From: a virus
Strand: one strand, 5' to 3'
UHGV virus genome: UHGV-1604392
DNA length: 21,983 nt
Positions 1 to 9,445 of the stretch are shown piece by piece. The notes under the pieces are model-generated. The model worked only from the letters and a program-made list of their open reading frames with translations. It was not told where the DNA came from and ran no database searches. The stretch's first letter is position 1. Each line of letters begins with the position of its first letter. A program made the position numbers and the translations under genes.

Positions 1-1119
1 ACATTGAACACGCTATTCGTCGATAAAAACTTGCGTTTTCACGGCCTGATGCAGGCATTTTCCCGCACCAACCGTATTTATGATGCAACTAAAACCTTCG
101 GTAATATCGTCACTTTCCGGGATCTGGAACGCTCAACTATTGATGCCATAACGCTGTTTGGTGACAAAAACACCAAAAATGTGGTGTTAGAAAAGAGTTA
201 TACAGAGTATATGGAAGGCTTTACTGATGCTACTACTGGTGAAGCTAAACGCGGCTTCATGACAGTAGTTTCAGAACTGGAACAACGGTTCCCTGACCCT
301 ACCAGTATTGAAAGTGAAAAAGAGAAGAAAGACTTCGTTAAACTGTTTGGCGAATACCTGCGTGCCGAGAACATCCTGCAAAACTATGATGAATTTGCCA
401 CGCTAAAAGCCCTGCAACAAATCGATCTTAGCGATCCTGTTGCGGTAGAAAAATTCAAAGCAGAACATTATGTGGATGATGAAAAGTTCGCTGAATTGCA
501 AACAATTCGTCTCCCTGCTGATCGCAAGATTCAGGATTATCGTTCTGCCTATAACGATATTCGCGACTGGCAGCGCCGTGAGAAAGAAGCTGAGAAAAAA
601 GAGAAATCAACCACTGACTGGGATGACGTAGTTTTTGAGGTCGATTTGCTGAAGTCTCAGGAAATAAACCTGGATTATATCCTTGGACTGATTTTCGAAC
701 ACAACAGACAAAATAAAGGCAAGGGCGAAATGATCGAAGAGGTCAAACGCTTAATTCGTTCAAGCCTAGGGAACCGTGCTAAAGAGGGCCTGGTGGTCGA
801 TTTTATTCAGCAAACGAACCTGGATGATTTACCGGACAAAGCCAGCATCATTGACGCATTCTTTACGTTTGCTCAACGCGAACAGCAACGTGAAGCAGAA
901 GCATTGATAAAAGAAGAAAATCTCAATGAAGATGCAGCAAAACGCTATATTCGCACGTCTTTAAAACGCGAATATGCCACCGAAAATGGCACAGAATTAA
1001 ACGAAACATTACCAAAACTTAGTCCGTTGAATCCGCAATATAAAACGAAAAAACAGGCAGTTTTCCAGAAAATCGTCTCGTTTATTGAGAAGTTTAAAGG
1101 CGTAGGCGGAAAAATATAG
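1..1119 (+). CDS. hsdR: Type I restriction enzyme R subunit (HsdR), C-terminal part; the 5' end lies upstream of the window
   Basis: Frame is open from the window edge to TAG at 1117-1119. An SF2 helicase motif VI-like QAFSRTNR sits near the start of the fragment, followed by a long helical C-terminal region as in HsdR proteins. Confidence 0.75.
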
Positions 1120-1135
1120 CCCAATTCGTGTTTTT

Positions 1136-1163
1136 CTTGCGGGTTCTTAATTAAACCCGCAAG
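1136..1163. other. Perfect inverted repeat (10-bp stem cttgcgggtt/aacccgcaag) just after the hsdR stop; no U-tract after it on either strand
   Basis: Read directly from sequence; a T-run precedes rather than follows the stem, so it is not a canonical intrinsic terminator. Confidence 0.3.
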
Positions 1164-1198
1164 AGACCGTGGGGTTCCAAATGGCTAATATACTCCCC

Positions 1199-1285
1199 TT
1201 ACCCATGAGCGACGATGCCGCCAAAAGTGATAGAGAACAGCCAGAAATAGATCGCGGCCATAATGATTTTGAATGCCGTGCTCAT
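1199..1285 (-). CDS. 28-aa hydrophobic peptide (MSTAFKIIMAAIYFWLFSITFGGIVAHG), single predicted transmembrane helix; below the 60-aa ORF-track cutoff
   Basis: ATG at 1285-1283 preceded by AGGAG 8 nt upstream; TAA stop at 1201-1199; lies downstream of a C1-operator-like site and a promoter-like TTGCTC-17nt-TAAAAC. Confidence 0.4.
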   Translation of the reverse strand: MSTAFKIIMAAIYFWLFSITFGGIVAHG

Positions 1286-1313
1286 ATTTTCAGCTCCTGT
1301 GATTGATTGGATA

Positions 1314-1344
1314 CATGCCGCGCCTTGCGGCATGTTTTTATTTT
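1314..1344 (+). terminator. Rho-independent terminator (8-bp GC stem catgccgc/gcggcatg, loop gcctt, then TTTTTATTTT) for plus-strand transcripts
   Basis: Stem and T-tract read from sequence; the same hairpin lies in the 5' leader of the minus-strand peptide mRNA. Confidence 0.55.
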
Positions 1345-1367
1345 CACTTTCTCTGTTTTAAAAATCA

Positions 1368-1384
1368 ATATTTATTAGAGCAAT
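1368..1384 (-). promoter_or_regulatory. P1 C1-repressor operator-like site (reverse complement ATTGCTCTAATAAATaTT, 1 mismatch to the 17-bp consensus as I recall it)
   Basis: Motif match; near-identical 27-bp module recurs at 9421-9447. Confidence 0.6.
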
Positions 1385-1890
1385 TATTGCTGGTGAAGAA
1401 GCGCATTTTCATACTCCCTGACCATTAACGTAAGCACGCCGTGCCTCCTGAAAACACGCGCCACTTCAATCTTATCTTCCAGCGCGAACGCGATTTTACT
1501 TAGACCAATTTTCTTAAGGAGATCAATCTTTGCTGGGCCGTCATTTCTGTCATCGGTGGCAGGACGCATAGATAGCAAAGGCTCAGCCCCGTTTGTTACG
1601 TACTTCCGCAGCCAGGCTCGTGTTTTATCCCTTGCGATCTCACAGCGCCCGGTTACAAACCAGACCGTGTAAACGTTAAATAACTGGCGCACCATATCAA
1701 TAACTGGAGTGATGGGAGTATCGGTGTCACAGGCGAGATTAAACTCGTTCCAGTCCTTTGTTAATGCACCTTTACCTAGTGGCGGAAGCAAATGCAGTCT
1801 GTCTTCAGTTGCCTCTGATATTGTTCCATCAATATCGACTATGACGATATACGGACGTTCCTGGTGTGCGTGTTTATTGAAAATACTCAA
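1384..1890 (-). CDS. HAD-superfamily polynucleotide 3'-phosphatase (phosphatase domain of T4 polynucleotide kinase type), no kinase domain
   Basis: Motifs IVIVDIDGTIS (DxDGT), CDTD, WFVTGR and DDR, in the order I recall for the T4 Pnk phosphatase domain; TTG start at 1890 with GAGGAGG 5 nt upstream. Confidence 0.75.
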   Translation of the reverse strand: MSIFNKHAHQERPYIVIVDIDGTISEATEDRLHLLPPLGKGALTKDWNEFNLACDTDTPITPVIDMVRQLFNVYTVWFVTGRCEIARDKTRAWLRKYVTNGAEPLLSMRPATDDRNDGPAKIDLLKKIGLSKIAFALEDKIEVARVFRRHGVLTLMVREYENALLHQQ

Positions 1891-1909: not shown

Positions 1910-1943
1910 AAAAAAATGCTGGTGGGCGCACTCCACCAGCATT
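1910..1943 (-). terminator. Rho-independent terminator on the minus strand (10-bp stem atgctggtgg/ccaccagcat followed by U7), between the 420-aa gene and the phosphatase gene
   Basis: Perfect 10-bp inverted repeat with a 7-nt loop; the A7 run at 1910-1916 gives U7 after the stem on the minus-strand transcript. Confidence 0.6.
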
Positions 1944-3459: not shown

Positions 3460-3476
3460 ATTGCTCTAATAAAAAA
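3460..3476 (+). promoter_or_regulatory. C1-operator-like site (ATTGCTCTAATAAAaaa)
   Basis: 14/17 match to the operator consensus; inverted relative to the site at 3509-3525. Confidence 0.45.
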
Positions 3477-3500
3477 CGTGATGAGTGTACATCACGTTTT
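3471..3500. repeat. Perfect palindrome AAAACGTGATG-agtgta-CATCACGTTTT (11-bp arms) between two inverted operator-like sites
   Basis: Read directly; could be a bidirectional terminator (GC stem flanked by T-runs on both strands) or a dimeric protein-binding site. Confidence 0.5.
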
Positions 3501-3508
3501 AAAAATAT

Positions 3509-3525
3509 GGAATTATTAGAGCAAT
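3509..3525 (-). promoter_or_regulatory. C1-operator-like site (reverse complement ATTGCTCTAATAAtTcc)
   Basis: Motif match immediately upstream (on the minus strand) of the 72-aa/420-aa operon. Confidence 0.55.
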
Positions 3526-5115: not shown

Positions 5116-5132
5116 ATTGCACTAATAATTTT
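5116..5132 (+). promoter_or_regulatory. C1-operator-like site (ATTGCaCTAATAAtTTT) in the promoter region of the zinc-ribbon operon
   Basis: 15/17 match to the operator consensus; overlaps a candidate -35 for the minus-strand promoter (-10 TATCAT). Confidence 0.4.
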
Positions 5133-5750: not shown

Positions 5751-5801
5751 CAGCTAAATCGCTCTATAAATCACGATTCATTGAGGCTATATTACACTAA
5801 T

Positions 5802-5818
5802 AAATTTATTAGAGCAAT
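5802..5818 (-). promoter_or_regulatory. C1-operator site, exact 17/17 match (reverse complement ATTGCTCTAATAAATTT), overlapping the methyltransferase stop codon
   Basis: Exact consensus match read from sequence. Confidence 0.65.
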
Positions 5819-9428: not shown

Positions 9429-9445
9429 ATATTTATTAGAGCAAT
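9429..9445 (-). promoter_or_regulatory. C1-operator-like site (reverse complement ATTGCTCTAATAAATaTT) with TTGCTC-17nt-TATGTC promoter-like elements
   Basis: Same 17-mer as at 1368-1384; sits between the divergent minus- and plus-strand operons. Confidence 0.6.

What the first reader, a model, noticed from the sequence alone, without database searches (positions are those of the whole stretch)
1199..1384. Operator-regulated 28-aa membrane peptide whose mRNA is fully antisense to a plus-strand terminated transcript (type I toxin-antitoxin-like layout)
A 28-aa hydrophobic peptide with a strong AGGAG site is encoded on the minus strand between hsdR and the phosphatase gene. A canonical plus-strand terminator (1314-1344) lies beyond its 5' end, so transcription continuing out of hsdR would be antisense to the whole peptide mRNA. 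The same hairpin sequence sits in the peptide mRNA leader. This resembles small-toxin/antisense-RNA pairs, or an induction-specific membrane-damaging peptide.
Basis: partly seen in the sequence, partly recalled or inferred. Interest (0 to 1): 0.5.

Follow-up and report, generated by a model that had tools for sequence, protein, structure and literature searches.

The report
Phage P1 early promoter with small membrane-peptide gene
This is the known repressor-controlled Op88/PpmgT early promoter of a P1-like plasmid-prophage, followed by a conserved RNA hairpin and a small, uncharacterised membrane-peptide gene; a restriction gene cassette inserted head-on next to it creates the antisense overlap, so it is not a toxin-antitoxin pair.

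Summary
These are a 28-aa hydrophobic ORF (1285->1199, minus strand) with AGGAG 8 nt upstream, a plus-strand hairpin plus T-run (1313-1345), and a C1 operator (1368-1384). The window is a P1-like phage-plasmid, and the 190-bp stretch is P1's annotated Op88/OpmgT operator with promoter P1pmgT. In P1 this unit heads the pmgT operon, and the peptide's stop codon lies on pmgT's ribosome-binding site. Here the pmgT-humD block ("variable region 8") has been replaced by a convergent type IC hsd cassette, so the peptide cistron is orphaned and faces hsdR. Diverged P1-like phages, such as Cronobacter phage JK004, keep the same order of operator, promoter, hairpin, SD and a hydrophobic ORF. There the ORF is 53 aa, is under purifying selection (dN/dS 0.22-0.39) and overlaps the next gene by ATGA. 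The hairpin covaries and fits the peptide-sense RNA slightly better. The T-run that makes it a "terminator" is the complement of the -10 box and discriminator, and occurs only in the P1 clade. I found no antisense promoter. The type I toxin-antitoxin reading is not supported. An induction-specific small membrane peptide remains plausible. Interest is modest.

The parts
1..1119 (+). 3' part of hsdR (type IC restriction subunit). This is the last gene of the convergent hsd cassette that replaces P1's pmgT-humD block.
   Evidence: The ORF at 4..1119 is listed. RefSeq names it 'HsdR family type I site-specific deoxyribonuclease'. The cassette layout is seen in phage phi456.
1136..1163 (.). Stable hairpin (CTTGCGGGTT-N8-AACCCGCAAG) in the hsd-specific spacer. 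It has no T-run on either strand, so it is not a canonical terminator.
   Evidence: The sequence is and the fold. The terminator scans do not list it.
1195..1201 (.). Recombination junction at the left edge of P1 'variable region 8'. Homology with P1 ends at about 1195, at the peptide's stop codon.
   Evidence: Breakpoints are seen. Alternative downstream contexts are seen. Variable region 8 is described in PMC9603915.
1199..1285 (-). 28-codon ORF for a single-helix hydrophobic peptide, MSTAFKIIMAAIYFWLFSITFGGIVAHG. It corresponds to the transmembrane part of a 53-aa protein found in diverged P1-like phages.
   Evidence: The ORF is intact in 163 of 165 loci anchored independently of it.
1294..1298 (-). 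Shine-Dalgarno AGGAG, 8 nt upstream of the ATG.
   Evidence: The sequence is. Within the P1 clade only single-locus changes touch it. The sister clade keeps GGAGC at the same place.
1299..1310 (-). Conserved linker CCAATCAATCAC between the hairpin and the SD. Its function is unknown.
   Evidence: CCAATCA(ATCA)C is conserved in nearly all lineages compared.
1313..1335 (.). Hairpin ACATGCCGC-N5-GCGGCATGT. On the minus strand it is the predicted 5'-terminal stem-loop of the peptide mRNA. On the plus strand it is the stem of a terminator-like site.
   Evidence: Covariation in the sister clade is shown.
1336..1345 (.). On the plus strand this is the T-run TTTTTATTTT of the terminator-like site. On the minus strand it is the -10 hexamer GAAAAT (1345-1340) plus the AAAAA discriminator of promoter P1pmgT.
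   Evidence: The P1 annotation was mapped onto the window. The hexamers are conserved while the spacer varies.
1363..1368 (-). -35 hexamer TTGATT of P1pmgT, abutting the operator.
1368..1384 (-). C1 repressor operator Op88/OpmgT (ATTGCTCTAATAAATAT). Its last base is shared with the pap stop codon.
   Evidence: The same 17-mer is found in Cronobacter phage JK004.
1384..1890 (-). pap, a HAD/PNKP-type phosphatase and the upstream neighbour on the same strand.

Best explanation
The region is the C1-repressed early transcription unit Op88/P1pmgT of a P1-like phage-plasmid. In the lysogen, C1 sits on the operator (1368-1384), which abuts the -35 hexamer (TTGATT, 1368-1363), and keeps the unit off. 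This step is established for P1 Op88. On induction, transcription starts about 7 nt after the -10 hexamer (GAAAAT, 1345-1340). That places the start at the foot of the hairpin at 1335-1313, so the mRNA would begin with a stem-loop. A stem-loop at the 5' end is the kind of structure known to protect E. coli mRNAs from decay that depends on a free 5' end (inferred). An unstructured CA-rich linker and a strong SD then drive translation of a 28-aa peptide that consists of a single hydrophobic, probably membrane-spanning, helix (inferred). In P1 the peptide's TAA lies inside pmgT's SD, 9 nt before the pmgT ATG. In diverged relatives the 53-aa version overlaps the next gene by ATGA. The cistron therefore normally leads an accessory early operon and is probably translationally coupled to it. 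In this window a convergent type IC hsd cassette has replaced pmgT-humD. This leaves the peptide as the only cistron of the unit, and its transcript runs antisense into hsdR. The reverse complement of '-10 box + discriminator + 5' hairpin' reads as an intrinsic terminator, and it probably does stop hsdR read-through. The resulting antisense overlap is a by-product of the cassette swap, not a dedicated toxin-antitoxin circuit.
For: Identity of the region: it matches the P1 pap-pmgT intergenic region at 97%, and P1's annotation places OpmgT (former Op88) and P1pmgT/P2pmgT there.

Promoter: across 29 leader haplotypes the -35 and -10 hexamers of P1pmgT are conserved. Nearly all variation falls in the 17-nt spacer and in P2pmgT's putative -10.

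Conserved order: every lineage examined has operator, -35, 17 nt, nAnAAT, a hairpin 5-8 nt later, CCAATCAC, GGAG, ATG and a hydrophobic ORF. The lineages are the P1 clade, JK004, L122-124 and L186-191.

Hairpin: at least four unrelated stem sequences occupy the same position. On 8 sister-clade sequences, 97.9% of cells are paired, 3 of 6 pairs carry double changes and 0 of 500 shuffles reach the observed covariation score. In the opposite orientation pairing falls to 89.6%, because G.U pairs become A.C. Four of five stem variants keep the sense fold better than the antisense fold.

Peptide: there are seven 53-aa homologues, all exactly 53 aa. The N-termini align without gaps, with M1, K6, A11 and W15 invariant and a pairwise E of 3e-4. 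dN/dS is 0.22-0.39, with Fisher p of 3e-4, 1e-3 and 0.03.

Coupling: P1-type loci read TAAGGGGGATGCATG. The 53-aa clade has an ATGA overlap.

Cassette swap: in phi456, hsdM..hsdR lie between the peptide ORF and phd/doc on the opposite strand. This interval is variable region 8 of P1-like phage-plasmids (PMC9603915). pmgT, pmgU and pmgV are non-essential by CRISPRi (PMC10695390).

T-run: an A-run before the hairpin is found only in the P1 clade.
Against: No transcription start site, translation or stability data were available, so the promoter start and the role of the 5' stem-loop are inferred. Within the P1 clade, selection on the 28-aa product is not demonstrable: there are 8 synonymous against 14 nonsynonymous variant types, omega is about 0.5 and the binomial p is 0.087. 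Codons 1-21 are nearly invariant even at wobble positions, with pi of 0.002-0.008 against 0.046 in pap. This hints at a constraint at the nucleotide or RNA level that the model does not explain. The P1-clade peptide lacks the hydrophilic tail, which is a well-conserved part of the 53-aa protein (tail omega 0.15-0.33), so it may be a remnant. One stem variant (L155) favours the antisense fold.
Confidence: 0.6

Rival explanations
1. Type I toxin-antitoxin-like module. The peptide is a membrane toxin, and the long 3' UTR of hsdR, terminated at 1313-1345, acts as the antisense antitoxin that neutralises leaky peptide mRNA in lysogens.
For: The peptide is small, hydrophobic and SD-led. A read-through hsdR transcript would be fully complementary to the ORF and SD. 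hsd-type loci keep the promoter hexamers.
Against: No dedicated antisense promoter was found. About 72% of homologous loci are P1-type and have no convergent gene. Sister-clade loci lack the opposite-strand T-run. IncF plasmids keep hsdR with the region cut by IS1 at 1278, so the terminator and ORF start are dispensable for hsdR. C1 repression already provides silencing. The peptide matches no toxin family. The SD is only weakly paired in the predicted fold.
Confidence: 0.1
2. The 28-codon ORF is a decaying remnant of the 53-aa gene, truncated when the downstream block was exchanged. Only the promoter, operator and leader matter. Any peptide made has no function of its own, beyond perhaps loading ribosomes for pmgT.
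For: The conserved tail is missing. Omega of about 0.5 is not distinguishable from neutral. Codons 22-28 are the most variable part, and several variants carry charged residues in the helix end (G22D, G23D, G28R). Alternative C-terminal fusions exist. The flanking genes are non-essential.
Against: The ORF, SD and ATG are intact in 163 of 165 loci. In hsd-type loci, where no downstream cistron remains, the promoter, SD and ORF are still kept. The common polymorphisms are mostly synonymous.
Confidence: 0.22
3. The unit's role in hsd-type elements is antisense transcription. On induction the C1-controlled promoter fires into the 3' end of hsdR and lowers HsdR. This would relieve restriction of newly replicated, not yet modified phage DNA.
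For: The geometry fits. The scan finds no minus-strand terminator-like site between the ORF stop and 503-486, which lies inside hsdR. The promoter hexamers are kept in hsd-type lineages, and one sublineage has -35 TTGACC, which is closer to consensus.
Against: The promoter and ORF predate the hsd insertion and are conserved without it. An untranslated transcript downstream of the ORF would be a likely target for Rho. No data bear on HsdR levels.
Confidence: 0.08

Closest known systems
Bacteriophage P1 C1-controlled operator Op88 (OpmgT) with promoters P1pmgT/P2pmgT
   Same: It is the same locus. The window matches the P1 pap-pmgT intergenic region at 97% identity and carries the same 17-bp operator and promoter hexamers, directly after pap.
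   Different: In P1 the unit drives pmgT-pmgU-pmgV. Here those genes are replaced by a convergent hsd cassette. The P1 reference annotation lists neither the small ORF nor the hairpin.
Type I toxin-antitoxin systems (hok/sok, ldr/rdl, tisB/istR, ibs/sib)
   Same: Both have a hydrophobic peptide of under 60 aa, and here an overlapping complementary transcript is possible.
   Different: There is no dedicated antisense RNA gene or promoter. Silencing is by a protein repressor. The antisense arrangement is not conserved among homologues. There is no sequence match to any toxin family.
Translationally coupled leader cistrons and small membrane proteins at the head of phage early operons
   Same: The ORF is short and SD-led. 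Its stop overlaps the next gene's SD (P1) or start codon (ATGA in the 53-aa clade). It is expressed from a repressor-controlled early promoter.
   Different: The product itself is conserved as a membrane helix plus tail in the sister clade (omega 0.22-0.39). It is therefore more than a passive upstream ORF there. In this window no downstream cistron remains.
5'-terminal stabilising stem-loops of E. coli mRNAs (for example the ompA 5' UTR hairpin)
   Same: The hairpin is predicted within 0-3 nt of the transcription start in every lineage. The structure is conserved through covariation while the sequence changes.
   Different: The start site is inferred from promoter spacing only. In the P1 clade the same DNA also reads as an intrinsic terminator for the other strand.

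Membership tests
Type I toxin-antitoxin system | Small (<60 aa) hydrophobic, membrane-targeted toxin ORF | tested here: met
   The ORF is 28 aa with GRAVY 1.40 and forms a single hydrophobic helix.
Type I toxin-antitoxin system | Dedicated antisense or sRNA gene with its own promoter, overlapping or adjacent to the toxin gene | tested here: not met
   No sigma70-like promoter was found on the plus strand of window 1-1400 or in the P1 locus. The single weak antisense match in JK004 is within the chance expectation and is not conserved in P1.
Type I toxin-antitoxin system | The toxin/antisense arrangement is conserved among homologous loci | tested here: not met
   P1-type loci (about 72%) have pmgT on the same strand and nothing convergent. 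The sister clade lacks the opposite-strand T-run.
Type I toxin-antitoxin system | Toxin mRNA is translationally locked, with the SD sequestered or requiring processing | tested here: inconclusive
   The MFE fold pairs only part of the SD weakly. The MFE structure has an ensemble frequency of 0.0036, and the z-score of -2.1 probably owes much to the 5' hairpin.
Type I toxin-antitoxin system | Sequence membership in a described toxin family | tested here: not met
   There are no Pfam or NCBIfam hits at E<=10 except an irrelevant HTH_Tnp_IS630 match at E=0.33. The PHROG hit has E=0.16. HMMER against 1.84 billion representatives finds only near-identical E. coli sequences.
Type I toxin-antitoxin system | Toxicity of the peptide, rescued by the antisense RNA | not testable with these tools
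   This needs expression experiments.
P1 C1-controlled operator/promoter unit (Op88/OpmgT) | 17-bp asymmetric operator matching ATTGCTCTAATAAATTT | tested here: met
   The site at 1368-1384 (minus strand) has 1 mismatch. The window holds 7 sites against 0.09 expected.
P1 C1-controlled operator/promoter unit (Op88/OpmgT) | Orthology to the annotated P1 locus | tested here: met
   Window 1195-1420 matches P1 84257-84482 at 97.3% identity. OpmgT and P1pmgT/P2pmgT are annotated within that stretch.
P1 C1-controlled operator/promoter unit (Op88/OpmgT) | Functional sigma70 promoter overlapped by the operator | tested here: inconclusive
   The hexamers TTGATT and GAAAAT with a 17-nt spacer are conserved while the spacer varies. 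The generic scan does not reach its threshold for them. There are no transcript data.
Intrinsic (Rho-independent) terminator, plus strand | G+C-rich stem-loop followed directly by a U-tract | tested here: met
   The stem has 10 pairs, 6 of them G-C, and is followed by TTTTTATTTT. The hairpin folds at -15.8 kcal/mol.
Intrinsic (Rho-independent) terminator, plus strand | Conserved as a terminator in related loci | tested here: not met
   The hairpin is conserved, but the adjacent T-run is absent in JK004, L122-124 and L186-191. P1 has the site with no upstream plus-strand gene.
Translationally coupled leader cistron | Stop codon overlapping or abutting the start signals of the next gene on the same strand | tested here: not met
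   This feature is met in P1-type loci (TAA within the pmgT SD, ATG 9 nt on). It is also met in the 53-aa clade (ATGA). In this window no same-strand cistron follows.

The most novel reading that the evidence does not exclude
In hsd-carrying P1-like plasmids the orphaned C1-controlled unit has been co-opted as a two-way antisense switch with hsdR. In the lysogen the hsdR 3' UTR mops up leaky mRNA for a membrane-active peptide. On induction the derepressed promoter both produces that peptide and drives antisense transcription that lowers HsdR, protecting replicating phage DNA from its own restriction enzyme.
Probability: 0.1. Interest if true: 0.55.

Novelty: new member of a known kind. Interest (0 to 1): 0.3.

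Why it matters
P1 is a classic model phage and a widespread phage-plasmid that carries resistance genes. This analysis shows that the reference P1 annotation omits a small ORF and a conserved RNA hairpin at a known C1-controlled promoter. The ORF belongs to an uncharacterised family of 28-aa and 53-aa membrane peptides, which is under purifying selection in sister lineages. The unit marks the exact left boundary of a cargo-exchange hotspot, variable region 8. If the peptide is active, it would be a new early, induction-specific membrane effector of P1-like phages. If it is not, the locus is still a clean example of how a cassette swap creates antisense overlaps that resemble toxin-antitoxin layouts.

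Tried and rejected
Family searches of the 28-aa, 44-aa and 53-aa forms against Pfam, NCBIfam and PHROGs gave nothing meaningful.

Rfam at E<=10 gave only a GcvB-like chance match (18 bits against a threshold of 42) and ncS01.

Protein searches with the window's 44-aa ORF returned only relatives at 89% identity or more. The sister clade was reached through synteny (Pap tblastn to Cronobacter phage JK004) and then a profile search.

Pap in genome contigs gave only two near-identical Escherichia loci.

An exact sister-clade SD motif found nothing in IMG/VR. A megablast of a sister-clade locus against plasmids found nothing, so its host is unknown.

Literature searches found no description of the peptide and no fine-scale transcript map of this region. 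The P1 genome paper is not held.

I looked for a conserved antisense promoter inside the ORF. CATAAT at 1259-1264 has no usable -35 and is not conserved in JK004, so I rejected it.

I considered the hairpin as a terminator for pap and rejected it, because no U-tract follows it on the minus strand.

I considered the longer 44-aa ORF (ATG at 1333) as the real gene and rejected it. Its start lies inside the hairpin and has no SD. The upstream extension has no counterpart in the sister-clade proteins, which begin at the position of the 28-aa start.

Full report
**What is in the sequence.** The window is a P1-like phage-plasmid (Punavirus). Window 1100-1420 matches 19 phage records and 890 of 5,426 complete E. 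coli genomes, mostly on plasmids. The plus strand carries the 3' end of hsdR, with its stop at 1119. The minus strand carries pap (1384-1890), a HAD/PNKP phosphatase.
- The 28-codon ORF runs from 1285 to 1199 and encodes MSTAFKIIMAAIYFWLFSITFGGIVAHG, with AGGAG (1298-1294) 8 nt upstream.
- A plus-strand terminator-like site has its stem at 1313-1335, followed by TTTTTATTTT.
- A C1 operator sits at 1368-1384.
- An AGGAG-led hydrophobic ORF of this size arose in 0.4% of 500 shuffles of the window.

**What the locus is.** The stretch 1195-1420 is 97% identical to the pap-pmgT intergenic region of phage P1. The P1 annotation places three elements there: the monovalent C1 operator OpmgT (former Op88) and two predicted sigma70 promoters, P1pmgT and P2pmgT. 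Mapped onto the window, P1pmgT has its -35 hexamer TTGATT at 1368-1363 and its -10 hexamer GAAAAT at 1345-1340. Among 29 leader haplotypes from IMG/VR contigs these two hexamers are conserved. The 17-nt spacer between them, and the putative -10 of P2pmgT, take most of the substitutions. That pattern is what a working P1pmgT promoter would show. The P1 reference annotates neither the small ORF nor the hairpin. Other records call the ORF 'hypothetical protein' or 'membrane protein'.

**Three genomic contexts.** Homology with P1 stops at window position ~1195, which is the peptide's stop codon.
- *P1-type loci* made up about 72% of 101 loci anchored on pap. The stop is followed by GGGGGATGC and then the pmgT ATG. 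The TAA therefore lies inside pmgT's ribosome-binding site.
- *hsd-type loci* include this window. They made up about 26% of the same set and are found in 221 of the 890 E. coli genomes with a match. A convergent type IC hsd cassette fills the whole interval up to phd/doc and replaces pmgT-humD. This interval is the published 'variable region 8' of P1-like phage-plasmids (PMC9603915). pmgT, pmgU and pmgV are non-essential by CRISPRi (PMC10695390).
- *Conjugative IncF plasmids* carry hsdR followed by window 1150-1278 at 100% identity and then IS1, which removes the ORF start, the SD and the hairpin. The P1 annotation already noted this identity with the sequence downstream of hsdR in R124/3 and EcoDXXI.

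Other protein variants read through the stop position into unrelated tails. The 3' end of the ORF is therefore a recurrent recombination junction.

**Distant relatives settle the architecture.** Cronobacter phage JK004 has a Pap protein 72% identical to the window's, and the same layout follows its pap gene:
- the identical 17-mer operator;
- a -35 hexamer TTGTTT and a -10 hexamer AATAAT;
- a hairpin with a different sequence;
- CCAATCAATCAC, then GGAGC;
- an ATG opening a 53-aa ORF whose stop overlaps the next gene's start as ATGA.

A profile search found seven such proteins, 64-87% identical and all exactly 53 aa. Each has a hydrophobic N-terminal helix and a conserved hydrophilic tail. They sit in ~90-kb P1-like contigs. 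In some of these pap is absent, so the cassette travels with the downstream operon rather than with pap. The window peptide aligns with their first ~21 residues without gaps. M1, K6, A11 and W15 are invariant, WLFS is shared with P0022, and the pairwise E-value is 3e-4. Among the 53-aa genes dN/dS is 0.22-0.39, with Fisher p values of 3e-4, 1e-3 and 0.03. In that clade this is a real protein-coding gene.

**The hairpin.** At least four unrelated stem sequences occupy the same position, 5-8 nt after the -10 hexamer.
- On eight sister-clade sequences, 97.9% of cells pair, three of six pairs carry compensatory double changes, and no shuffle out of 500 reaches the observed covariation score.
- Read in the opposite orientation, pairing drops to 89.6%, because four G.U cells become A.C.
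- Four of five natural stem variants keep the peptide-sense fold more stable than the antisense fold; one does the reverse.
- The A-run that precedes the hairpin on the peptide strand is the T-run of the 'terminator' on the other strand. It is simply GAAAAT plus the AAAAA discriminator, and it exists only in the P1 clade.

The conserved element is thus a stem-loop at the predicted 5' end of the peptide mRNA. Its terminator appearance on the plus strand is specific to one lineage. The sequence is nonetheless canonical and would very probably stop hsdR read-through in this window.

**Is the 28-aa product itself under selection?** The data are weak.
- Of 165 loci anchored independently of the ORF, 163 keep it intact.
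- There are 8 synonymous against 14 nonsynonymous variant types. Omega is about 0.5 and the binomial p is 0.087.
- Codons 22-28 are the variable part and include G22D, G23S, G23D and G28R, mostly in hsd-type loci.
- Codons 1-21 are almost invariant even at wobble positions. Their pi is 0.002-0.008, against 0.046 in pap and 0.026-0.049 in the leader.

I cannot explain this nucleotide-level conservation. It might reflect constraint on mRNA structure, use of the stretch as a homology anchor for cassette exchange, or a single recent allele.

**The type I toxin-antitoxin reading.** The peptide resembles a type I toxin only in size and hydrophobicity.
- No sigma70-like promoter for an antisense RNA is found on the plus strand.
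- The one weak antisense match in JK004 is within the chance expectation and is not conserved.
- The convergent arrangement is absent from most homologous loci.
- Silencing is already provided by C1.
- No toxin family matches the peptide.
- The predicted leader fold leaves the SD largely accessible.

I therefore rate this reading at about 0.1.

**Most likely mechanism.** C1 represses P1pmgT through Op88; this is established for P1. On induction a transcript starts at the foot of the hairpin, is stabilised by that 5' stem-loop, and is translated into a small inner-membrane peptide; these steps are inferred. In P1 and the sister clade the terminating ribosome is handed on to the next gene, which is inferred from the overlapping signals. 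In this window the downstream genes have been replaced by a head-on hsd cassette. The peptide is the only cistron left, its transcript runs antisense into hsdR, and hsdR read-through ends at the reverse complement of the promoter-plus-hairpin. The antisense overlap is real as geometry but is best read as a by-product.

**Verdict.** The operator and promoter are already known. The small ORF, the hairpin and the 28-aa/53-aa peptide family are uncharacterised, but they are of a familiar kind. Interest is 0.3.

Noticed in passing
window 1150-1278; locus L120 (NZ_LS992186.1): Conjugative IncF plasmids carry hsdR followed by this stretch at 100% identity and then IS1. The IS1 cuts inside the peptide ORF. 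This suggests that the type IC hsd cassette of R124-like plasmids was captured from a P1-like phage-plasmid, bringing a fragment of P1 sequence with it.
   Followed up: partly
window 1136-1163: An 11-bp G+C-rich hairpin lies 17 nt after the hsdR stop. It has a T-run before it rather than after it on the plus strand, so it is not a terminator in either direction. It may act as a 3' end-protecting structure for hsdR mRNA or for the peptide mRNA.
   Followed up: no
window 1222-1285 (ORF codons 1-21): This stretch is nearly invariant at all three codon positions across about 160 loci. Its pi is 0.002-0.008, against 0.046 in the neighbouring pap gene. Coding constraint alone does not predict conservation this strong, and I have no explanation for it.
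   Followed up: partly
window 3460-3525: Two inverted C1 operators (Op86a and Op86b in P1) flank a hairpin, ACGTGATG-N5-CATCACGT, which has an A-run on one side and a T-run on the other. This looks like a bidirectional terminator for pmgQ embedded in the C1-controlled pmgR promoter region.
   Followed up: no
window 1915-1943: A strong minus-strand terminator (11-bp stem followed by TTTTT) lies between pmgS and pap. pap would therefore need read-through or its own promoter to be expressed.
   Followed up: no
window 5116-5132, 5791-5818, 9429-9445: Four further C1 operator matches occur here, including an overlapping pair at 5791-5818. The site at 9429-9445 has exactly the same sequence as Op88.
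   Followed up: no
proteins P0009-P0013, P0029, P0030, P0032; loci L082, L113: In some P1-like elements the peptide ORF continues past residues 18-28 into unrelated tails, one of which is a DUF551 protein. In others it is interrupted at codon 20 by an insertion. The 3' end of the ORF is thus a repeatedly used exchange point.
   Followed up: partly
L121 3745-4059 (JK004) and equivalents in L122-L124, L186-L191: The gene coupled to the 53-aa peptide encodes a protein of about 104 aa. It has weak hits to winged-helix families and to the PHROG 'Ren-like exclusion protein' (E=7e-4). This hints that the C1-controlled operon is an accessory or host-takeover unit.
   Followed up: no
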